From positions 64,001 to 128,000 of the forward strand of contig CAWEQH010000008.1 in assembly GCA_963811165.1 (NCBI GenBank): DNA of 64,000 bases, written 5' to 3'. Positions 49,842 through 57,701 of the stretch are shown piece after piece. The stretch comes from an uncultured Nitrospiraceae bacterium (GTDB lineage: Bacteria; Nitrospirota; Thermodesulfovibrionia; Thermodesulfovibrionales; UBA6898). Every line of letters begins with the position of its first letter. Positions within the stretch are counted from its first letter, which is position 1. The notes beneath the pieces were generated by a model. It saw only the letters and a program-made list of their open reading frames with translations, was not told the DNA's origin and did no database searches. A program made the position numbers and the translations under genes.

Positions 49842-49862
49842 TCTGGAGGATTGACTGTTACC

Positions 49863-50304
49863 ATGAGGATAGAAGATATAAGGCCTGCTGAAGGCAGCCG
49901 GAAGCGAAATAAGAGAGTCGGAAGGGGCGTAGGTTCAGGCCACGGAAAGACGTCCTGCAAAGGGCACAAAGGGCAGAAGGCCAGGTCCGGGGGCACAACC
50001 GGCCTCGGGTTTGAGGGCGGCCAGATGCCGCTGCAAAGAAGGCTCCCCAAAATAGGGTTCAAAAACAGGTCGAAAATCGAATACGCCGTGATTAATCTCG
50101 ATAGGATAAACGACCTTAAGGGAATGGACTGTGATTACGCCTGAAATGCTAATGGAAAAGAGAATTATAAGGGACATTAAGGACGGCCTTAAGATACTTG
50201 GCGACGGCAAGATCGAAAGGCCCGTTACCGTAAAGGCCACTGCATTTAGCGCTTCGGCAAGCGAGAAGATTGCGGCTGCGGGCGGCAAGGCAGAGGTAAT
50301 ATAA
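49863..50304 (+). CDS. rplO: 50S ribosomal protein L15 (frameshift near 50130)
   Basis: [24 protein letters not shown]. Confidence 0.95.
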
Positions 50305-50305
50305 G

Positions 50306-51615
50306 TTGGGGCTCCTTGCAAACTTCCAAAACATATTTAAAATCACGGAGCTGAAGAACAGGATATTTTTCACGTCTTGCCCTTTTGACGGTCTATAGGG
50401 TCGGCTGCCATGTCCCTACCCCCGGCATAAACGGCGAGGAGCTGAGTAAGTTTCTGACCCAACAGGCGAGGCTCTTTTATGGGGTTTTTCGACATGTTCT
50501 CAGGAGGGGCCCTGTCAAGGGTCACGATCTTCGCGCTCGGCATCATGCCATACATCAGCGCCTCGATCATTATGCAGTTGCTTACCGTGGTTATCCCTTC
50601 AATCGGGAAGCTTGCGAAAGAGGGCGAGGCAGGCAGAAAGAAGATCACGAGATATACGAGATACGGCACGGTCGTCATCAGTGCAATACAATCTTTCGGG
50701 ATCGCGGCCGGACTGGAGAGTATGTCTCAGGGCGCTTTCGTACAAAACCCGGGCTGGTCGTTCAGGCTGGTCACCATGATAACACTTACCTCGGGGACGG
50801 CCTTTATTATGTGGCTCGGCGAGCAGATCACCGAGCGCGGCATAGGTAACGGCATATCCCTGATCATATTTGCGGGTATCGTCGCGAGGTTCCCCAATGC
50901 AATAATCAGCACCGTAAGGCTGGTGCAGGCCGGTGAACTTTCGATCTTTTTAGTACTTTTTTTGATAGTGATGATGGTCGGCGTCGTGGCTGGTATCATT
51001 ATGATGGAGAGAGGACAAAGGAAGATACCGGTGCAGTATGCAAAGAGAGTAGTTGGAAGAAAGGTGTACGGGGGACAGTCTACTCATCTGCCGCTGAAGA
51101 TCAACACTGCCGGTGTTATCCCTCCGATCTTTGCGTCGTCTATCATCATGTTTCCCGCAACAGTGGCCGGCTTTATATCGATCCCATGGGTCCAGTCGAT
51201 TGCGAAACAGCTGTCACCGGGGACGATAGTCCATACGCTACTGTACGTAAGCATGATCTTTTTCTTCGCCTATTTTTATACGGCCATCGTCTTTAACCCC
51301 GTCGACATTGCCGACAATCTGAAGAAATATGGCGGATATGTGCCGGGCATAAGGCCGGGACAGAAGACATCAGAATACCTTTACCGCGTGCTCACGAGGC
51401 TGACATTTGTGGGCGCGATATATCTTGCGATTATCTGCGTTATCCCTGAGATCCTGATTACGAGGTTCAGGGTGCCTTTTTATTTCGGAGGTACCTCTCT
51501 GCTTATCGCAGTGGGTGTTGCCCTGGATACGGTTTCTCAGATAGAATCGCATCTGGTGACCCGTTCCTATGAGGGTTTTCTCAAGAAGGGCAGACTCAAG
51601 GGCAGAAAGGGATGA
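50306..51615 (+). CDS. secY: Preprotein translocase SecY (5' frameshifts)
   Basis: FALGIMPYISASII, GIGNGISLII, FGGTSLLI; N-terminal part read from TTG 50306. Confidence 0.96.
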
Positions 51616-51735
51616 AGCGTGCGGGGGCCCTCAGGGTCGATACCCGCATTCTGCAACAGACCGATGCCGCGGTCGGCTCCAAGCGTTAAAGCGTGATGGG
51701 AATTACTTCATATAAATTGTTATTTGAGAATTGAT

Positions 51736-52485
51736 GTGATCTTCCTGAAATCTCCCGGGGAGATCGAGAAAATGGCCCGGTCGGGCCGAATTGTGGCGAA
51801 AGTCCTCGATGAATTGAAAGAGGTGGCGGCGATCGGTGTTACGACCAAGGAGATTGAGGATTTCGCGGATGAGCGGATAAAGGCACTCGGGGGCGTCCCG
51901 GCTTTTAAGGGATATAGGGGTTATCCGGCGAGTGTCTGCACTTCTGTTAATGAACAGGTCGTGCATGGAATTCCTTCGCAGCGAGTGCTTAAGGACGGAG
52001 ACATCGTCAGTATAGACATCGGTGTCTACCTGGACGGCTTCTACGGTGACGGTGCGATAACCGTTCCCATCGGTACGATAGACAGGGAAGCGGCCGAACT
52101 CATAAGAGTGACCGAAGAGGCTCTGTATTTGGGAATACGGAATGCGGTTGAGGGCAATCGTCTCTATGATATTTCCAGCGCGATCCAGAGATACGTGGAG
52201 GAAAACGGTTTTTCCGTAGTCAGACTGTTTGTCGGCCACGGAATAGGAAGGGAACTTCACGAAGAGCCTCAGGTGCCCAATTACGGGGTGCCTGGTCAAG
52301 GTCCGAGACTGAAAAGGGGAATGACGCTGGCGATAGAGCCAATGGTCAATGCCGGAGGTCATGAGGTGATCATACTGGACGACGGCTGGACTGCGGTGAC
52401 AAAGGATGGGAAAAAGTCGGCCCACTTTGAGCATACGGTGCTGGTGACCTCGGATAAGCCGAGAATATTGACTAAATACGGTTAA
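51736..52485 (+). CDS. map: Type I methionine aminopeptidase
   Basis: [28 protein letters not shown]; start approximate. Confidence 0.97.
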
Positions 52486-52505
52486 GAAAGTTATACTTCT
52501 CACTT

Positions 52506-52724
52506 ATGGCAAAAGAAGAAAATATTGAAGTTCAGGGCACGATCCTTGAGACCTTGCCAAACGCAATGTTTAGGGTTGAGCTTGAAAACGGCCAGGTTAT
52601 CCTTGCGTACGTTTCCGGCAAGATGCGAATGCACTTTATAAAGATCCTCCCCGGGGACAAGGTGACGATCGAATTGTCGCCCTATGACCTTACAAAGGGA
52701 AGAATTACTTATAGATTCAAATAG
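52506..52724 (+). CDS. infA: Translation initiation factor IF-1
   Basis: [22 protein letters not shown]. Confidence 0.99.
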
Positions 52725-52756
52725 TTGCGCAATTACGCTATAGTGAAGGAGTTATC

Positions 52757-52870
52757 ATGAAGGTTCGTTCATCGGTAAAACCGATATGTGCAAAGTGTAA
52801 GATCATAAAGAGAAAAGGTGTTATCCGCGTTATCTGCGATAACCCCAAGCATAAACAGAGACAGGGATAA
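52757..52870 (+). CDS. rpmJ: 50S ribosomal protein L36
   Basis: Hand translation [37 protein letters not shown]. Confidence 0.98.
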
Positions 52871-52955
52871 AACGGTGATACGTGACGGTAAACGGTGTCG
52901 CCCTGAAGGCGTTAACGGCACTGGTGCTAAACACTGACACTGAAAAGGAGAGCAT

Positions 52956-53332
52956 ATGGCGAGAATCGCTGGAGTTGATCTACCCAAAAATGAACGCATC
53001 GAAATAGCGCTTACGCGCATCTTCGGGATCGGGAGGCCGCTTTCCCGGAAGGTCCTCGGTGAGGCCCGGGTAAGTCCGGACATAAGGGTGAAAGATCTTA
53101 AGGATGACGACGCGGTAAAGATCAGGGCCATTATCGAAAGAGACTTTAGGGTCGAGGGTGATCTCAGGCGTGACATATCGATGAATATCAAGAGGCTTAC
53201 CGATATCGGCTGCTACAGAGGGACAAGACACAGGACTGGGGTTGCCGTTACGGGGGCAGAGGACGAAGACGAACGCCAGAACGACGAAAAGGCCCGAGAA
53301 AAGCGGTCGTCGGCAAGAAGAAGGAGGCGTAG
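52956..53332 (+). CDS. rpsM: 30S ribosomal protein S13 (3' frameshift)
   Basis: [31 protein letters not shown] in the shifted frame. Confidence 0.95.
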
Positions 53333-53335
53333 GGA

Positions 53336-53722
53336 ATGGCTCAGAGAAAAAAAGGAGTCAAGAAGGACAAACGGAATATCACGAGCGGCGCGGCCTATAT
53401 TCAGGCAACCTTTAACAATACGATCGTGACGATAACAGACCCGGCCGGCGGCGTGGTCACCTGGTCAAGTGCAGGGAACCTGGGATTCAAGGGTTCGCGT
53501 AAGGGAACGCCCTATGCGGCCCAGATTGCGGCCGAGTCAGCTGCAAAAAAGGCAATAGACGTCGGGATGAAACAGGTCGATGTATATGTTAAAGGACCGG
53601 GAGCGGGGAGGGAATCGGCGATTAGGGCGCTTCAGGCAGCCGGCCTCGACATCAATCTGATCAAAGACGTGACCCCGGTACCGCATAACGGGTGCAGACC
53701 GCCTAAGAGGAGGAGGGTGTAA
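53336..53722 (+). CDS. rpsK: 30S ribosomal protein S11
   Basis: [21 protein letters not shown]. Confidence 0.99.
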
Positions 53723-53723
53723 A

Positions 53724-54351
53724 TTGGCTAGATATACTGGACCTCAGTGCAGGCTTTGCCGCAGGGAAACGGAGAAACTTTTTCTCAAGGGCGACAGATG
53801 TTTTACCGAAAAGTGCGCGGTAGAAAGGAGGCAATATCCCCCCGGACAGCACGGTCAGAGAAGGGGAAAGTTGTCTGACTACGGCGTTCAGCTCAGAGAA
53901 AAGCAGAAGGTGAGGAATACCTACGGCGTTCTCGAAAAACAATTCAGAAAGTATTTTCATAGAGGCTGAGACGAAAAAGGGCGTTACGGGCGAGGTGCTT
54001 CTGCAGTTTCTTGAGACGCGCATGGACAACGTCGTTTATCGTATGGGGTTCGCCCCTAACAGAAACGGCGCCAGGCAGCTCGTAAGACACGGCCATTTTC
54101 TGGTCAACGGCAAATATGTCGATGTGCCGTCCTTCAGTGTCCGTATTGGAGATGTGGTCGAGGTGAAGACGTCGAGCCGTGATCTTGATGCGATAAAGGA
54201 CAGCATAACCAGGGTAGAACAGAGGGGAATCCCTTCCTGGGTAGAGATGGATTTCCAGAACTTTAAAGGAAAAGTTCTCCAGATACCATCAAGAGAAGAT
54301 ATCCAGTTGACGGCCCAGGAACAGCTGATAGTCGAGCTTTACTCCAAGTAA
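53724..54351 (+). CDS. rpsD: 30S ribosomal protein S4 (frameshift near 53960)
   Basis: [14 protein letters not shown] and [10 protein letters not shown]...IVELYSK. Confidence 0.95.
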
Positions 54352-54436
54352 GGTGGAGCGGTCGCGTGATGGGGATTTTCTTAGTTAAGATTACATTAAA
54401 GAATAAAATATAAATTCGACGCAGATGGGAGGCCTT

Positions 54437-55476
54437 ATGAATCTGAAGAAAAAAGGCTTTCAACTACCTGACAAAATCAGGTTTGATGAAGAGACGCTGA
54501 GCAGTACTTATGGAAAGCTTGTCGTGGAGCCGTTGGAGCGCGGCTTCGGTACCACTATGGGAAATTCACTCAGGAGAGTGCTGCTCTCATCGCTTGAAGG
54601 CGCCGCGATCACAGCCGTAAAGATCGCGGGTGCGCTTCATGAGTTTTCGTACGATTAACGGGGTTAAGGAAGATGTCATAAACATAATCCTGAATCTTAA
54701 GAAGCTGAGGATTAAATTTCACGGAGAAGGCAACAAGATCGGGACCTTTAATGTGAAAGGGCCGGGACATGTAACCGGCGCGGACCTTCAGGTTGATTCG
54801 ACGATCGAGGTCCTGAATCCCGAAACACCGATTGCGACACTCGATAAGGGCGGCCAATTTCGACGCCGAGGTCTATATCAGGAAAGGCAAGGGATATATC
54901 TCCTCTGAACTGAACAAGGAAGACCTGCCTGTCGGGATGATCGCCGTCGACGCGGCCTTCACCCCTCTTAGAAAGGTGAATTTCTGGGTCGAAAAGACGA
55001 GGGTCGGCAGGGAGACGGACTATGACAGGCTGATCATGGAGATCTGGACGGATGGGAGCATCTCTCCCGAGAAGGCGGTATCTCAGGCGGCCTCGATAGT
55101 CATCGAGCATATGGACCTGTTTATATTCGAGGAGGAAGACGAAGACATGCCGGTGTCCGATGAAGTCGGGGTCGGCCATTCCGACAGTGTCGGGTTCTCT
55201 TCGTCAAACGATAACCTCCTAAAGAACGTGGACGAACTCGAACTTTCTGTCAGGTCCTTCAACTGCCTGAAAAACGCCAATATAAAGACGATCATTGAGC
55301 TTGTTCAGAAGACCGAGCCCGAGATGCTTAAAACCAAGAATTTCGGCAGAAAGTCACTGAACGAGATAAAGGAGATACTCGGCAGGATGGGGCTCCACCT
55401 CGGCATGAAGATAGACGTGGACAACCTCGACAAAGAAGCCATGCAAAGCGGAGGTATCAAGCAAAATGCGTCATAA
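54437..55476 (+). CDS. rpoA: RNA polymerase alpha subunit (two frameshifts)
   Basis: [45 protein letters not shown]. Confidence 0.96.
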
Positions 55477-55963
55477 AGTAGATGGAAGATTATTCGGCAG
55501 GCCGGCCAATCAGAGGAAGGCGCTTTTGCGGGGTATCGTTACCGCCCTGTTCGAACAGCAGAGGATAGAGACGACCGTGGCGAAGGCGAAGGAGGCCAAG
55601 AGGATTGCGGAGAGGATGATCACCTTCGGGATAAAGGGAGACCTCCATTCGAAGCGCCAGGTGCTTGCATATGTCACCTGCAGGGATATAGCCTCAAAAC
55701 TCTTCAGTGAGATTGCCCCTCGTTTTCAGGGCAGAAATGGCGGCTACCTGAGGATAGTGCATACCAGGCAGCGGTTAAAAGACTCCGCGCCGATGGCGAT
55801 ACTCGAGTTTATCGATTATGAGAACATAAAGCAGGCCAAAGGGAAAGCGAAGAAAGAAGAGAAGCCCGAAAAGGCCGAAAAGAAGACCGAGAAGAAGACT
55901 GAGAAAAAACCCGAAAAAGCCCAAAAGAAGGCTGAGAAAAAGGCTGAGAAGGCATCGGCATAA
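55466..55963 (+). CDS. rplQ: 50S ribosomal protein L17 with Lys/Glu-rich tail
   Basis: [22 protein letters not shown]. Confidence 0.97.
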
Positions 55964-56103
55964 TGAGCGATTTTCTGATATTACTCGCCGTTGTCGCAGC
56001 GTGGATAATACTGCAGACGGTAGTGCTGCCAAGGATCGGCGTGCCGACCTGAGCAGTGCCTACGGTCCCGGGTAAGACCGACAAAAAATGTAAACGCCAT
56101 TAG
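55963..56103 (+). CDS. Candidate 46-aa membrane selenoprotein (29 aa if UGA 56050-56052 is a stop)
   Basis: TAATG overlap with rpl[57 protein letters not shown]-like hairpin after the UGA. Confidence 0.65.
56063..56080 (+). promoter_or_regulatory. Putative bacterial SECIS element
   Basis: CGGTC-CCGGGTAA-GACCG stem-loop whose GGTC arm starts after an 11-nt spacer from the UGA. Confidence 0.55.
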
Positions 56104-56130
56104 AGGTTCATCTTAGGCGGTGTAATAATC

Positions 56131-56157
56131 AAAGGGCTCTGTGAGGAGCCTTTTTTT
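56131..56157 (+). terminator. Rho-independent terminator of the ribosomal cluster
   Basis: GGCTC-TGTGAG-GAGCC followed by T7. Confidence 0.85.
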
Positions 56158-56228
56158 GTTTTAATTTTTTATCCCGAACTTCTGTTGAATTACACCCCCT
56201 GTAACATGTTTCTTCCCGTTCATATCAT

Positions 56229-56342
56229 TCACTTCTTTTTTTCTTGCAAGGGTTCGTCACTTTCCTTACTAAAAAAAGGCCGAACTGCGGAGGTATTACC
56301 GCAGTTCGGCCCATAGATCAAGCAGTATCCGGCTGGTTCCAT
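56229..56342 (-). CDS. Possible 37-aa peptide
   Basis: MEPAGYCLIYGPNCGNTSAVRPFFSKESDEPLQEKKK; strong GGAGG RBS; upstream TTGACA-N17-TATCGT at 56499-56471. Confidence 0.4.
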   Translation of the reverse strand: MEPAGYCLIYGPNCGNTSAVRPFFSKESDEPLQEKKK

Positions 56343-56613
56343 TCCCTCCCCTCCTAAGGAGGTCTTTCCTTGCCGGTCCACTGCCCTCGGGTGAGAATTG
56401 CCGCTTACCTTCACCCTGATTTACGTCAAGAACCCTAAAATATCCGGGCCCGCCTTATGCTCTTACCCTAACGATACTCCCCAGCCGGAGGGATGTCAAT
56501 TAGGTAATTTCGGTTAATAGGAAGGCTAAAGCAGGTGATTTATGAAGAGGTTCAGCCACCGTTGTTGCCCTCAGTACTTCCGCATTGAGCTTCGTTTCGA
56601 CGAGCAAGGAAAG

Positions 56614-57195
56614 TTAACGAGCCTTTCTTTCGAAGCGTTCCAGGGAATAAAACATCGCCCCCGCCACGAGTACCGCAACGGCTATCACGATCCAGTGGTT
56701 TACCCCCAGGAGCCCGGGTAAGGTCGCAGTTCCCATACCCGATGACATGTAAAAATTTCCCAGGGCAGGATAGACAACCGCAAATAGCAGGGAACCTGCA
56801 ATCAGACCCAACATTGTGACCAAGGCGTCAATTCTGCCGCTTCCGAGGGCCGCGACAGCTGTGCCCGGACAATATCCCGCCACAAGATAGCCCAGCCCAA
56901 AGAGGGCCCCACCGGTAAGCTGCGGCCAGAAATAGGTGGGGACTATCCATACCTTGCTCATATCGAGAAATTTCTGGTCCCCCAGCAGATAAAGACCACT
57001 GGATGCTACGAGTATGGCCGTAAACATCGCCTTCGGCACGGCAAAATCCCTGAGATAAAAGACGCCCGTGAGCTTGTGGGGGTTGCCGAGCCCTCCTCTT
57101 TCCAGAAACAGACCAAAGAAGAACCCTACGATAAGTGCCACGATGAGGCCGGCACCTTCACCGAACAAACCATATTCATAAAGAGGAGCGGTCAT
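56614..57195 (-). CDS. YeeE/YedE-family sulfur transporter, second subunit
   Basis: GGALFGLGYLVAGYCPGT and TM helices; start revised to ATG 57195 (ATGA overlap). Confidence 0.88.
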   Translation of the reverse strand: MTAPLYEYGLFGEGAGLIVALIVGFFFGLFLERGGLGNPHKLTGVFYLRDFAVPKAMFTAILVASSGLYLLGDQKFLDMSKVWIVPTYFWPQLTGGALFGLGYLVAGYCPGTAVAALGSGRIDALVTMLGLIAGSLLFAVVYPALGNFYMSSGMGTATLPGLLGVNHWIVIAVAVLVAGAMFYSLERFERKAR

Positions 57196-57701
57196 GACCA
57201 AAGCCTCCTGAAGATCGCGGCAAATAGAAAGCCGCTTATGAACATTGATGTCACAAATACCCATCCCCCTACCGCTAACTGTGCGCCTCCGGTAAGGGCG
57301 ACTCCGCTTGTGCATCCCCGCGCAAGCCTGCTGGCAAAACCCATCAGAATCCCGCCCCCAAAGGCTGTCAATAGCCTTGTAGTGCTGCTCATGCCGGCTG
57401 CCTTATCGAATGTAAGCCGAAAATTCCGGCTGAGAAGAGCGCCTGTGAGGGCCCCGACCAAAAGGCCGAGGAGCTCGAAAACAATCCAGTCCTTTAGGGG
57501 AGAGCCGGCGCCCAGATAGCGTGAAAAGTATGTAAGGCTTCCCGCATACTCCGGATTTATATTTTTCGTGGCTATCGCAGAGACTATTGAAAAAGCGCTC
57601 GATGCGCCGAGACCTTTTCCCATAATGTAAAACGAGGCGAGAAGGGTCAATCCAAGTCCGATGCCGGCAACGTAGGGAGACCAGAAACTATTTTTTCCCA
57701 T
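57192..57701 (-). CDS. YeeE/YedE-family sulfur transporter, first subunit
   Basis: WSPYVAGIGLG, GGILMGFASRLARGCTSG. Confidence 0.9.
   Translation of the reverse strand: MGKNSFWSPYVAGIGLGLTLLASFYIMGKGLGASSAFSIVSAIATKNINPEYAGSLTYFSRYLGAGSPLKDWIVFELLGLLVGALTGALLSRNFRLTFDKAAGMSSTTRLLTAFGGGILMGFASRLARGCTSGVALTGGAQLAVGGWVFVTSMFISGFLFAAIFRRLWS

What the first reader, a model, noticed from the sequence alone, without database searches (positions are those of the whole stretch)
55963..56103. Hidden membrane microprotein with in-frame UGA and SECIS-like hairpin at the end of the ribosomal operon (candidate selenoprotein)
Seen: an ORF missing from the track starts in the rplQ stop (TAATG) and lies inside the operon terminator (56131-56157). 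It encodes one TM helix, then LPRIGVPT-UGA, and the frame stays open for 16 more codons to UAG. After the UGA the RNA reads GCAGUGCCUAC-GGUC-CCGGGUAA-GACC. Known: the E. coli fdhF SECIS reads UGA-CACGGCCCAUC-GGUUGCAGGUCUGCACC, with an 11-nt spacer and loop GGU at codon +7. Both spacings are identical here (AVPTVPG versus HGPSVAG). Inference: a 46-aa single-pass protein with Sec30 and Cys43, co-transcribed with the translation machinery. No sel genes are in this window.
Basis: partly seen in the sequence, partly recalled or inferred. Interest (0 to 1): 0.82.

Follow-up and report, generated by a model that had tools for sequence, protein, structure and literature searches.

The report
Overlooked tiny membrane selenoprotein family
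The apparent stop codon in this tiny gene at the end of the ribosomal-protein operon is almost certainly read as selenocysteine, giving a 46-residue membrane-anchored protein of a widespread family of anaerobic bacteria that databases cut short and that the selenoprotein catalogues I could read do not list.

Summary
The ORF 55963-56103 starts in the rplQ stop and has UGA at codon 30.

- The genome has selA, selB, selD and tRNA-Sec(UCA).
- Relatives occur in 182 of 301 genomes of the class (Thermodesulfovibrionia-like) and 114 of 251 of a second phylum (taken as Desulfobacterota).
- Of 123 loci read base by base, 117 have TGA at codon 30, six have it six codons later, and none has TAA or TAG. 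Terminal stops vary freely.
- The tail after UGA shows codon-type variation and usually a Cys. A G-loop hairpin follows in 65 of 74 class loci (synonymous null 12).
- 17 homologues from other lineages have TGC/TGT there; only 3 of those genomes have selA and selB.
- No Pfam, NCBIfam or PDB family matches.

Caveats: this gene's own hairpin is weak, and read-through was not observed. The ribosomal operon is a lineage-specific site (55 of 74 class loci, 0 of 46 elsewhere). Other sites lie beside secG, a DsbC selenoprotein, thioredoxin or CcdA. The most likely function is a membrane-tethered Sec/Cys redox loop in thiol-disulfide handling (about 55%, inferred).

The parts
55466..55963 (+). rplQ (ribosomal protein L17); its TAA overlaps the start of the small gene
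   Evidence: TIGR00059 E 1.6e-35 and PF01196
55963..56103 (+). small selenoprotein gene, 46 codons plus TAG when UGA is read as Sec (29 aa if UGA stops)
   Evidence: homologues
55972..56028 (+). codons 4-22, single transmembrane helix; W14, L17, Q18 conserved
   Evidence: hydropathy, AlphaFold helix 2-25, alignments
56026..56049 (+). conserved juxtamembrane motif L-P-[RK]-x-G-[VI]-P-T; G26 invariant, P23 and T29 at least 90% in 110 rows
56050..56052 (+). in-frame TGA, codon 30, inferred selenocysteine
   Evidence: TGA in 74 of 74 and 29 of 29 loci; TGC/TGT in 17 homologues
56063..56080 (+). SECIS-like hairpin (5 bp, loop with GGGU at +18 to +21 after the UGA); weak in this copy
   Evidence: family-level enrichment over synonymous recoding
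56089..56091 (+). Cys43 codon, candidate resolving cysteine (13 residues after Sec)
   Evidence: a tail Cys in 69 of 74 class loci and 29 of 29 second-phylum loci
56131..56160 (+). intrinsic-terminator-like stem with T tail closing the operon; a minus-strand site overlaps it, so it may serve the convergent genes too

Best explanation
This is a real gene for a 46-residue single-pass membrane selenoprotein. Ribosomes finishing rplQ restart at the overlapping ATG (inferred). At codon 30, SelB with Sec-tRNA(Sec), bound to the G-loop hairpin 11-28 nt downstream, inserts selenocysteine, and translation runs on to TAG (strongly inferred from comparative data, not observed; about 0.93). The helix probably inserts N-out/C-in (positive-inside rule, inferred), so Sec30 sits just past a Pro-kinked helix end on the cytoplasmic face. 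Most likely function (about 0.55, inferred): Sec30 is a redox-active nucleophile that closes a selenylsulfide loop with the tail Cys (Cys43 here; +5 in the U/C-xxxx-C forms) and is re-reduced by thioredoxin. It would act as a small membrane-tethered relay or switch in thiol-disulfide or persulfide handling at the inner membrane. The site after rplQ mainly gives high constitutive expression in this class.
For: Machinery: selA, selB, selD (itself with a TGA) and tRNA-Sec(UCA) are in the genome. Codon 30 is TGA in 74 of 74 class loci and 29 of 29 second-phylum loci, located with a model of the first 29 columns only. The terminal stops split TGA/TAG/TAA 27/24/23 and 8/6/15; rplQ stops in the same 55 loci split 26/12/17. 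Of 20 hand-picked weak second-phylum hits, 14 have TGA at codon 30 and 6 have it six codons later. After the UGA, all four third bases occur in the Val and Pro codons (three of four for Ala) in 18 AVP-type loci, and the tail Cys codon is TGC 42 / TGT 27. G-loop hairpin: 65 of 74 and 27 of 29 loci against means of 11.7 (max 18) and 6.5 (max 11) for synonymous recodings; Cys genes 8 of 17 against 4.4 (max 8); 147 of 600 control TGA stops. Sec/Cys pair: 17 genomic homologues have TGC/TGT, and 3 of their 17 genomes have selA and selB, against selA in 175 of the 182 matching class genomes (hand count). G154 (same family, 99% complete) lacks selA, selB, tRNA-Sec and the gene. A divergent copy the HMM missed keeps UGA, hairpin, tail and Cys after rplQ (L207). 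Function: C-side net charge median +4; the Cys offset varies (+5, +8, +13 to +15); neighbours include a UxxC DsbC selenoprotein, thioredoxins, CcdA, peroxiredoxin, CMD and rhodaneses.
Against: No read-through, protein or selenium was observed; the RNA run gave only low-depth contigs of relatives. This copy's hairpin misses the strict rule (G third in an 8-nt loop, 15 nt spacing, -5.8 to -6.9 kcal/mol), and only 40 of 74 class loci pass that rule. G196 (92% complete) has the TGA gene but no selA, selB or tRNA-Sec was found. Five of 74 class loci have no tail Cys. Hits were found with models that include the tail, which could under-sample truncated copies. The Cys set was selected by a pattern ending in Cys, so its codon is by construction; completeness of those genomes is not given. 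Redox neighbours are a minority of second-phylum loci (9 of 29; 109 of 166 ORFs scanned; no background control), and five Cys loci are close kin. Six of 12 CcdA-thioredoxin loci lack the gene next door. Topology is inferred from charge only.
Confidence: 0.55

Rival explanations
1. A selenoprotein as above, but an accessory of the translocon or membrane-protein biogenesis machinery (SecYEG, ribosome-associated), a bacterial parallel to human SELENOS, with the Sec/Cys loop as an interaction switch.
For: It lies after rplQ, at the end of the ribosomal operon that also holds a secY-like gene (recognised by eye), in 55 of 74 class loci, overlapping or abutting in 40 of 55. It lies directly after secG in another family (Pfam SecG in L029, L036, L098, L104, L139). 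SecA is divergent at L071 and an FKBP upstream at L114. The U30-C43 loop is Pro/Gly/Lys-rich and about as long as the 15-residue SELENOS loop, which PMC13524514 links to translation and membrane insertion (abstract and passages).
Against: There is no rplQ linkage in 29 second-phylum or 17 Cys loci. rplQ and tpiA-secG are simply strong housekeeping transcripts. No sequence likeness to SELENOS was tested. The gene was not found in 15 of 15 f6 genomes although all have selA, so it is dispensable.
Confidence: 0.15
2. A selenoprotein whose Sec and Cys ligate a soft metal (Cu, Hg, Zn) or an Fe-S species at the membrane, rather than cycling as a redox pair.
For: A fixed C-xxxx-C motif in 17 of 17 Cys loci and U-xxxx-C in 26 of 29 second-phylum loci. 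A like C-xSG-x-C motif occurs in adjacent DUF6132 genes at 7 of 17 Cys loci. MerR, HesB-like and FmdB zinc-ribbon neighbours occur in a few loci.
Against: In this class the spacing wanders from +8 to +18 and the Cys is absent in 5 of 74 loci, which suits a flexible resolving Cys better than a chelate.
Confidence: 0.15
3. Sec is inserted, but the point is regulatory or storage: a selenium-sensing or selenium-sink peptide whose read-through couples selenium supply to the end of a highly expressed operon.
For: A tiny product translationally coupled to very abundant mRNAs; failure to recode leaves a clean 29-residue peptide.
Against: Cys orthologues with a conserved second Cys persist in genomes without Sec machinery, which points to chalcogen chemistry in the protein. 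In this window the gene is last before the terminator, with nothing downstream to regulate.
Confidence: 0.08
4. UGA is a true stop. The product is a 29-residue membrane peptide and the hairpin is an unrelated conserved RNA element.
For: Databases hold many 29-aa forms (8 of 11 hits; 3 of 3). This copy's hairpin is weak. One genome has the gene without detected Sec genes (G196).
Against: TGA is invariant while real stops vary. The tail is coding-like with a Cys. Cys orthologues continue in frame with the same motif. The hairpin is enriched only where the codon is TGA.
Confidence: 0.04
5. UGA is read as Cys or Trp: an opal-reading selC* tRNA-Cys or an altered genetic code.
For: The genome has a long selC*-like tRNA-Cys (C4:471037-471126). 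Opal selC* tRNA-Cys species are described in PMC5389517 (passages). A few database proteins show W at this position.
Against: That tRNA has a GCA anticodon. The only UCA tRNA is a canonical tRNA-Sec (69.5 bits). TGA is the commonest stop of long frames here (729 of 1663). The W forms look like gene calls under another code (inferred).
Confidence: 0.02

Closest known systems
Bacterial SelB/SECIS selenoprotein genes (archetype E. coli fdhF; bSECIS model in PMC13188914, section on SECIS elements read)
   Same: In-frame UGA, a hairpin directly downstream with G's at +18 to +20 (codon +7 GGT, as in fdhF and this genome's fdhA), Sec machinery in the genome, Cys orthologues elsewhere.
   Different: The product is only 43-62 aa, the hairpin covers most of the remaining coding sequence, and this copy's hairpin is marginal against the model.
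The 119 catalogued prokaryotic selenoprotein families (Table 1 of PMC13188914, read in full), including small ones such as KCU-star, CC/Se, dual-CXXC (NF041197), TsoA/C/X/Y and deep-Sep DG/DF
   Same: A Sec/Cys pair with a second Cys nearby; found in Sec-rich anaerobes.
   Different: No listed family has a TM-P-x-x-G-x-P-T-U motif or U-xxxx-C. No NCBIfam selenoprotein model matched any of 110 members at E 0.05.
Human SELENOS (PMC13524514, abstract and passages) and SELENOK (recalled, no call)
   Same: A membrane-anchored selenoprotein with a basic Pro/Gly-rich disordered tail; SELENOS closes a 15-residue Cys174-Sec188 selenylsulfide loop, against U30-C43 here.
   Different: Here Sec comes first and lies about 8 residues after the helix, and the protein is a quarter the size. 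It uses a bacterial in-gene SECIS. No homology was tested or is claimed; this is analogy only.
DUF6132 (PF19628)
   Same: A small membrane protein with C-xSG-x-C after a helix; adjacent to the Cys forms in 7 of 17 loci.
   Different: The profile match is limited to the motif (probability 10.8%, 13 columns); no family member hits PF19628.
ATP synthase subunit b/b' membrane anchor
   Same: Weak NCBIfam hits over the helix (best E 0.0035, 4 of 110 members).
   Different: Profile comparison with this class's own b/b' N-termini gives 2.2%; there is no coiled-coil stalk. Alphaproteobacterial b' was not compared by profile.

Membership tests
Bacterial SelB/SECIS selenoprotein gene | selA, selB, selD and tRNA-Sec(UCA) in the genome | tested here: met
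   all over the curated cut-offs
Bacterial SelB/SECIS selenoprotein gene | UGA conserved in homologues, not exchanged for UAA/UAG | tested here: met
   117 of 123 loci TGA at codon 30, 6 at codon 36, none TAA/TAG
Bacterial SelB/SECIS selenoprotein gene | Coding conservation past the UGA | tested here: met
   third-base variation, TGC/TGT Cys, tails of 13-32 codons
Bacterial SelB/SECIS selenoprotein gene | Cys-containing orthologues aligned to the UGA | tested here: met
   17 genomic loci; invariant C30 and C35 in 97 Cys-form proteins
Bacterial SelB/SECIS selenoprotein gene | bSECIS hairpin at family level (G-loop stem 14-37 nt after UGA) | tested here: met
   65 of 74 and 27 of 29 against synonymous nulls of 11.7 and 6.5; strict rule 40 of 74 and 26 of 29 against 3.1 and 2.3
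Bacterial SelB/SECIS selenoprotein gene | This copy meets the published bSECIS model (G in first two loop positions, 16-37 nt spacing, MFE at or below -7.5) | tested here: inconclusive
   G third, 15 nt spacing, -6.9 for the hairpin and -7.7 for 51 nt. It fits if a C-A mismatch is counted as stem, where same-genus L024 has C-G. bSECISearch itself was not available.
Bacterial SelB/SECIS selenoprotein gene | Selenium shown in the protein | not testable with these tools
   needs 75Se labelling or mass spectrometry
Any catalogued selenoprotein family (NCBIfam/Pfam models) | Match to a family model above cut-off | tested here: not met
   NCBIfam; Pfam; PDB sequence and fold
SELENOS/SELENOK | Sec near the C-terminus decoded by a 3'-UTR SECIS | tested here: not met
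   Sec is 16 residues from the end and the hairpin is in-gene
SELENOS/SELENOK | Sec-Cys selenylsulfide loop on the cytoplasmic side | not testable with these tools
   residues and spacing are present; bond and topology are inferred only
ATP synthase b/b' | Profile homology and a long soluble stalk | tested here: not met
   hhalign 2.2%; protein is 46 aa with a coil tail

The most novel reading that the evidence does not exclude
A minimal bacterial counterpart, by convergence, of the ER selenoproteins SELENOS/SELENOK: a one-helix selenoprotein made in step with ribosomal protein L17 (or SecG in another family), whose Sec-Cys loop acts at the translocon as a redox switch tying selenium and thiol status to membrane-protein biogenesis.
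Probability: 0.15. Interest if true: 0.88.

Novelty: new variant of a known kind. Interest (0 to 1): 0.63.

Why it matters
It adds a family to the bacterial selenoproteome that is common where it occurs: 182 of 301 genomes in this class and 114 of 251 in a second, selenium-rich phylum. Databases hold it only as truncated or hypothetical proteins. At 43-62 residues it is close to a minimal selenoprotein (one helix, Sec, a short loop, one Cys), so it is an easy system for asking what Sec does at a membrane. It has natural U/C pairs and natural loop lengths from 5 to 15. Its coupling to rplQ predicts that it is among the more highly made selenoproteins of these cells, which matters for selenium budgets of anaerobes. 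The decoding mechanism itself is standard.

Tried and rejected
- Complex prediction of a Cys form with its neighbouring CcdA domain gave no verdict.
- Fold search of the model against the PDB found no match. A profile search of PDB sequences found nothing below E 0.18.
- Rfam on 55400-56700 gave three chance-level hits and no SECIS family.
- Viral contigs: none of 5 pattern hits was confirmed; the pattern ended in Cys, so TGA forms could not be seen.
- Longer or fused forms: 2 hits among 8000 scored candidates, both with W at position 30 and apparently spurious extensions. No fusion was seen, which is weak evidence.
- The ESM Atlas returned one unnamed cluster at 0.88, a lead only.
- ATP synthase b homology and DUF6132 homology were not supported.
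- RNA runs held only 5-7% of the words. One showed low-depth contigs over the gene and none over 56102-56249; the other did not cover the gene. Neither shows transcription.
- L064 (Sphaerisporangium) was dropped from the 18 Cys-pattern loci because the match lies in a long frame without the helix.
- A fixed-column covariation count was not run because loop sizes shift the register between subgroups. The synonymous-recoding null was used instead.
- The selA profile inside the class is uninformative (281 of 301 positive).
- Haft and Tolstoy 2025 could not be read; its families were checked only through the review's table and NCBIfam.
- The BSepDB supplement was seen in its first part only (a genome list).

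Full report
1. Observation. The sequence is as described. ATG 55963 overlaps the rplQ stop. There are 29 codons to TGA (56050-52), then 16 codons with Cys43 to TAG. Residues 4-22 form one hydrophobic helix. AlphaFold with a 110-row alignment gives a helix at 2-25 and coil after it, mean pLDDT 75.5. A terminator-like stem follows at 56131-56154. The hairpin at 56063-56080 exists, and codon +7 is GGT as in E. coli fdhF and this genome's own fdhA. Alone it is not significant: 44 of 200 shuffles fold as well.

2. Host and machinery. Proteins from loci of same-order relatives carry Nitrospirota / Thermodesulfovibrionales names, so I take the class as Thermodesulfovibrionia (inference). The genome (95% complete) has selA, selB, selD with its own TGA, and tRNA-Sec(UCA). 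It also has recognisable selenoprotein genes: fdhA, a peroxiredoxin, a UxxC thioredoxin-like gene and a CCAUGG protein (named by eye from motifs), and a UxxC DsbC. The small gene is single-copy.

3. The family. The read-through protein matched 176 of 301 class genomes and a profile matched 182 of 301. All 150 listed of 184 matches hold exactly one TGA. It was not found in 15 of 15 f6 genomes, had one weak hit among 50 f18 genomes, and was not found in 109 of 109 sampled genomes of other classes of the phylum. These absences are upper bounds: a divergent copy after rplQ in G056 was missed by the profile yet keeps UGA, hairpin, tail and Cys. In the phylum of G314 (record titled Desulfobacteraceae; taken as Desulfobacterota) 114 of 251 genomes match, and 116 of 123 matches contain a TGA (hand count). 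A protein search with a mixed alignment gave 1566 clusters at E 0.01 among 2208 candidates; wherever the 120 listed carry a protein name it is 'hypothetical protein'. Sec-type copies are stored as 29-aa fragments.

4. Is UGA a stop? I located codon 30 with a model of the first 29 columns only. It is TGA in 74 of 74 class loci (including this one; 73 distinct proteins) and 29 of 29 second-phylum loci. The terminal stops are mixed (27 TGA, 24 TAG, 23 TAA; 8, 6, 15), and so are the rplQ stops of the same loci (26 TGA, 17 TAA, 12 TAG). Twenty hand-picked weak hits, including six whose match stopped short of the TGA, gave 14 TGA at codon 30 and six copies of a variant ending CPT-TGA six codons later; none had TAA or TAG. 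The tail behaves as coding sequence. In 18 AVP-type loci the third bases vary while the first two are fixed. The first tail Cys is TGC 42 / TGT 27 in the class and 17 / 12 in the second phylum. A Cys is present in 69 of 74 and 29 of 29 tails. Kin are not independent, so I give no P value.

5. Sec/Cys pair and profile. A genome scan whose pattern ended in Cys returned 18 loci; 17 are full homologues, in records titled Planctomycetaceae, Myxococcales/Polyangia, Deltaproteobacteria, Acidobacteria, Bacteroidota, Leptospira and Desulfobacteraceae, all with C-xxxx-C. Three of their 17 genomes have selA and selB (completeness not given). Of the 182 matching class genomes, 175 have selA (hand count). 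Of the seven without, three have selB and tRNA-Sec, G196 (92%) has neither, and three (81-89% complete) were not tested further. G154, same family and 99% complete, lacks selA, selB, tRNA-Sec and the gene, and nothing like it follows its rplQ.

6. SECIS. The relaxed rule was a stem of at least 4 bp, a 3-9 nt loop starting 14-37 nt after the codon, G among the first three loop bases, and -3 kcal/mol or better. It is met by 65 of 74 and 27 of 29 UGA loci. Synonymous recodings of the same peptides give 11.7 (max 18) and 6.5 (max 11) over 40 rounds; Cys genes give 8 of 17 against 4.4 (max 8). The strict rule (G in first two, -5) gives 40 of 74 and 26 of 29 against 3.1 and 2.3, and 3 of 17 for Cys genes. 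Of 600 sampled TGA ends of long frames in this genome, 147 and 57 pass. Stems differ in sequence between subgroups but keep pairing and a GG-rich loop (which by its pattern saw 32 of 34, 25 of 29 and 15 of 17 loci). The window's copy passes only the relaxed rule; same-genus L024 has a C-G pair where this copy has C-A.

7. Context. rplQ is directly upstream in 55 of 74 class loci, overlapping or abutting in 40 of 55, and in none of 46 loci outside the class. Other class sites are after tpiA-secG (Pfam SecG confirmed in five loci) or after a DsbC-type gene (seven loci; the in-frame UxxC was read in three). Eleven of 17 Cys loci have a thioredoxin, CcdA, DUF6132, rhodanese/TauE or HesB-like neighbour; five of these are close kin. 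Nine of 29 second-phylum loci have CcdA, thioredoxin, peroxiredoxin or CMD within 1.5 kb (109 of 166 ORFs were scanned, no background control). Six of 12 CcdA-thioredoxin loci have the gene directly upstream and six do not. The context points to thiol chemistry but not to a fixed partner.

8. Mechanism. Shown: the ORF, the invariant UGA, the coding tail, hairpin enrichment, the Cys orthologues, the machinery. Inferred: translational coupling to rplQ; SelB-dependent Sec insertion (0.93); N-out/C-in topology (N-terminal charge median -1, C-side +4); a Sec30-Cys43 selenylsulfide loop reduced by thioredoxin. The Cys offset is +5 or +6 outside the class but +8, +9, +13 to +15 or +18 within it, and absent in five. 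That suits a resolving Cys on a flexible tail. I put a membrane-tethered redox relay or switch at 0.55, a translocon accessory at 0.15, metal binding at 0.15, a selenium sensor or sink at 0.08, a true stop at 0.04 and Cys/Trp decoding at 0.02.

9. Comparison with what is known. It meets every testable family-level criterion of a bacterial SelB/SECIS selenoprotein gene, and belongs to no modelled family (NCBIfam; Pfam; PDB). Papers and what I saw of each:
- PMC13188914: abstract, the sections on SECIS, on selenoproteins with the full Table 1 of 119 families, and on operons. No family with this motif.
- PMC13326102 (BSepDB): abstract, the content section and the first part of its one supplement. 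Its online database could not be searched.
- PMC12013277 (deep-Sep): passages. Its model reads 300 nt after the TGA, while this gene has about 50, which may explain the miss (my inference).
- PMC13524514: abstract and passages.
- PMC5389517: passages.
- Haft and Tolstoy 2025: not seen; known only from the review's citation and table.
Searches that found no description of the family: (five motif strings, 0 papers). Subscription papers, bioRxiv supplements, figure alignments and NCBI models newer than June 2026 could still hold it. The scan's own notes held no look-alike. A word search returned eight other, seemingly unrelated uncatalogued selenoprotein families, unchecked, which suggests such finds are not rare.

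10. Verdict. A real, widespread, apparently uncatalogued family of single-pass membrane selenoproteins of 43-62 residues, decoded in the standard way, with an unusual minimal anatomy and an unproven function. Novelty: new variant of a known kind. Interest 0.63.

Noticed in passing
window 49851-55476 (rplO, secY, rpsM, rpsD, rpoA): Several ribosomal-operon genes appear broken into frames; rpoA runs through three. Contigs of two other runs lack one base at 54649 and at 54856, so these are probably assembly indels, not biology.
   Followed up: partly
G000 C4:471037-471126: A long tRNA with GCA anticodon and U discriminator scoring 57 bits on Rfam tRNA-Sec: a selC*-like tRNA-Cys, a type reported for Nitrospirae in PMC5389517.
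   Followed up: partly
G000 C4:644207-644298: ARAGORN calls a 92-nt tRNA with ACA anticodon; it does not look like a clean tRNA and may be a false call.
   Followed up: no
L145-L147, L155-L157: A variant of the family in the second phylum with a six-residue insertion, ending F-x-C-P-T-TGA, which would give a CxxU motif. In five of the six genomes it is a second copy beside the standard gene.
   Followed up: partly
window 56614-57701, minus strand: Two convergent YeeE/YedE-type sulfur/selenium transporter ORFs (PF04143) end near the same terminator region; no link to the small gene was tested.
   Followed up: no
L128 213-977; G000 C1:386596-387369: DsbC-type selenoproteins (FDDPE-U-PYC), stored in the protein collection as an N-terminal fragment; the genome also has Cys paralogues.
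   Followed up: partly
G000 C8:343678: An in-frame TGA (RLLKA-TGA-AYDLL) with coding-like sequence on both sides, about 2 kb downstream of the fdhA TGA; a possible further selenoprotein or a chance hit.
   Followed up: no
L207 (G056), after rplQ: A divergent family member with an altered helix and no LPRLG motif but the same UGA, hairpin and Cys tail, invisible to the profile.
   Followed up: partly
window 56277-56312: A strong 14-bp inverted repeat with a T tail on the minus strand, probably the terminator of the YeeE-type genes.
   Followed up: no
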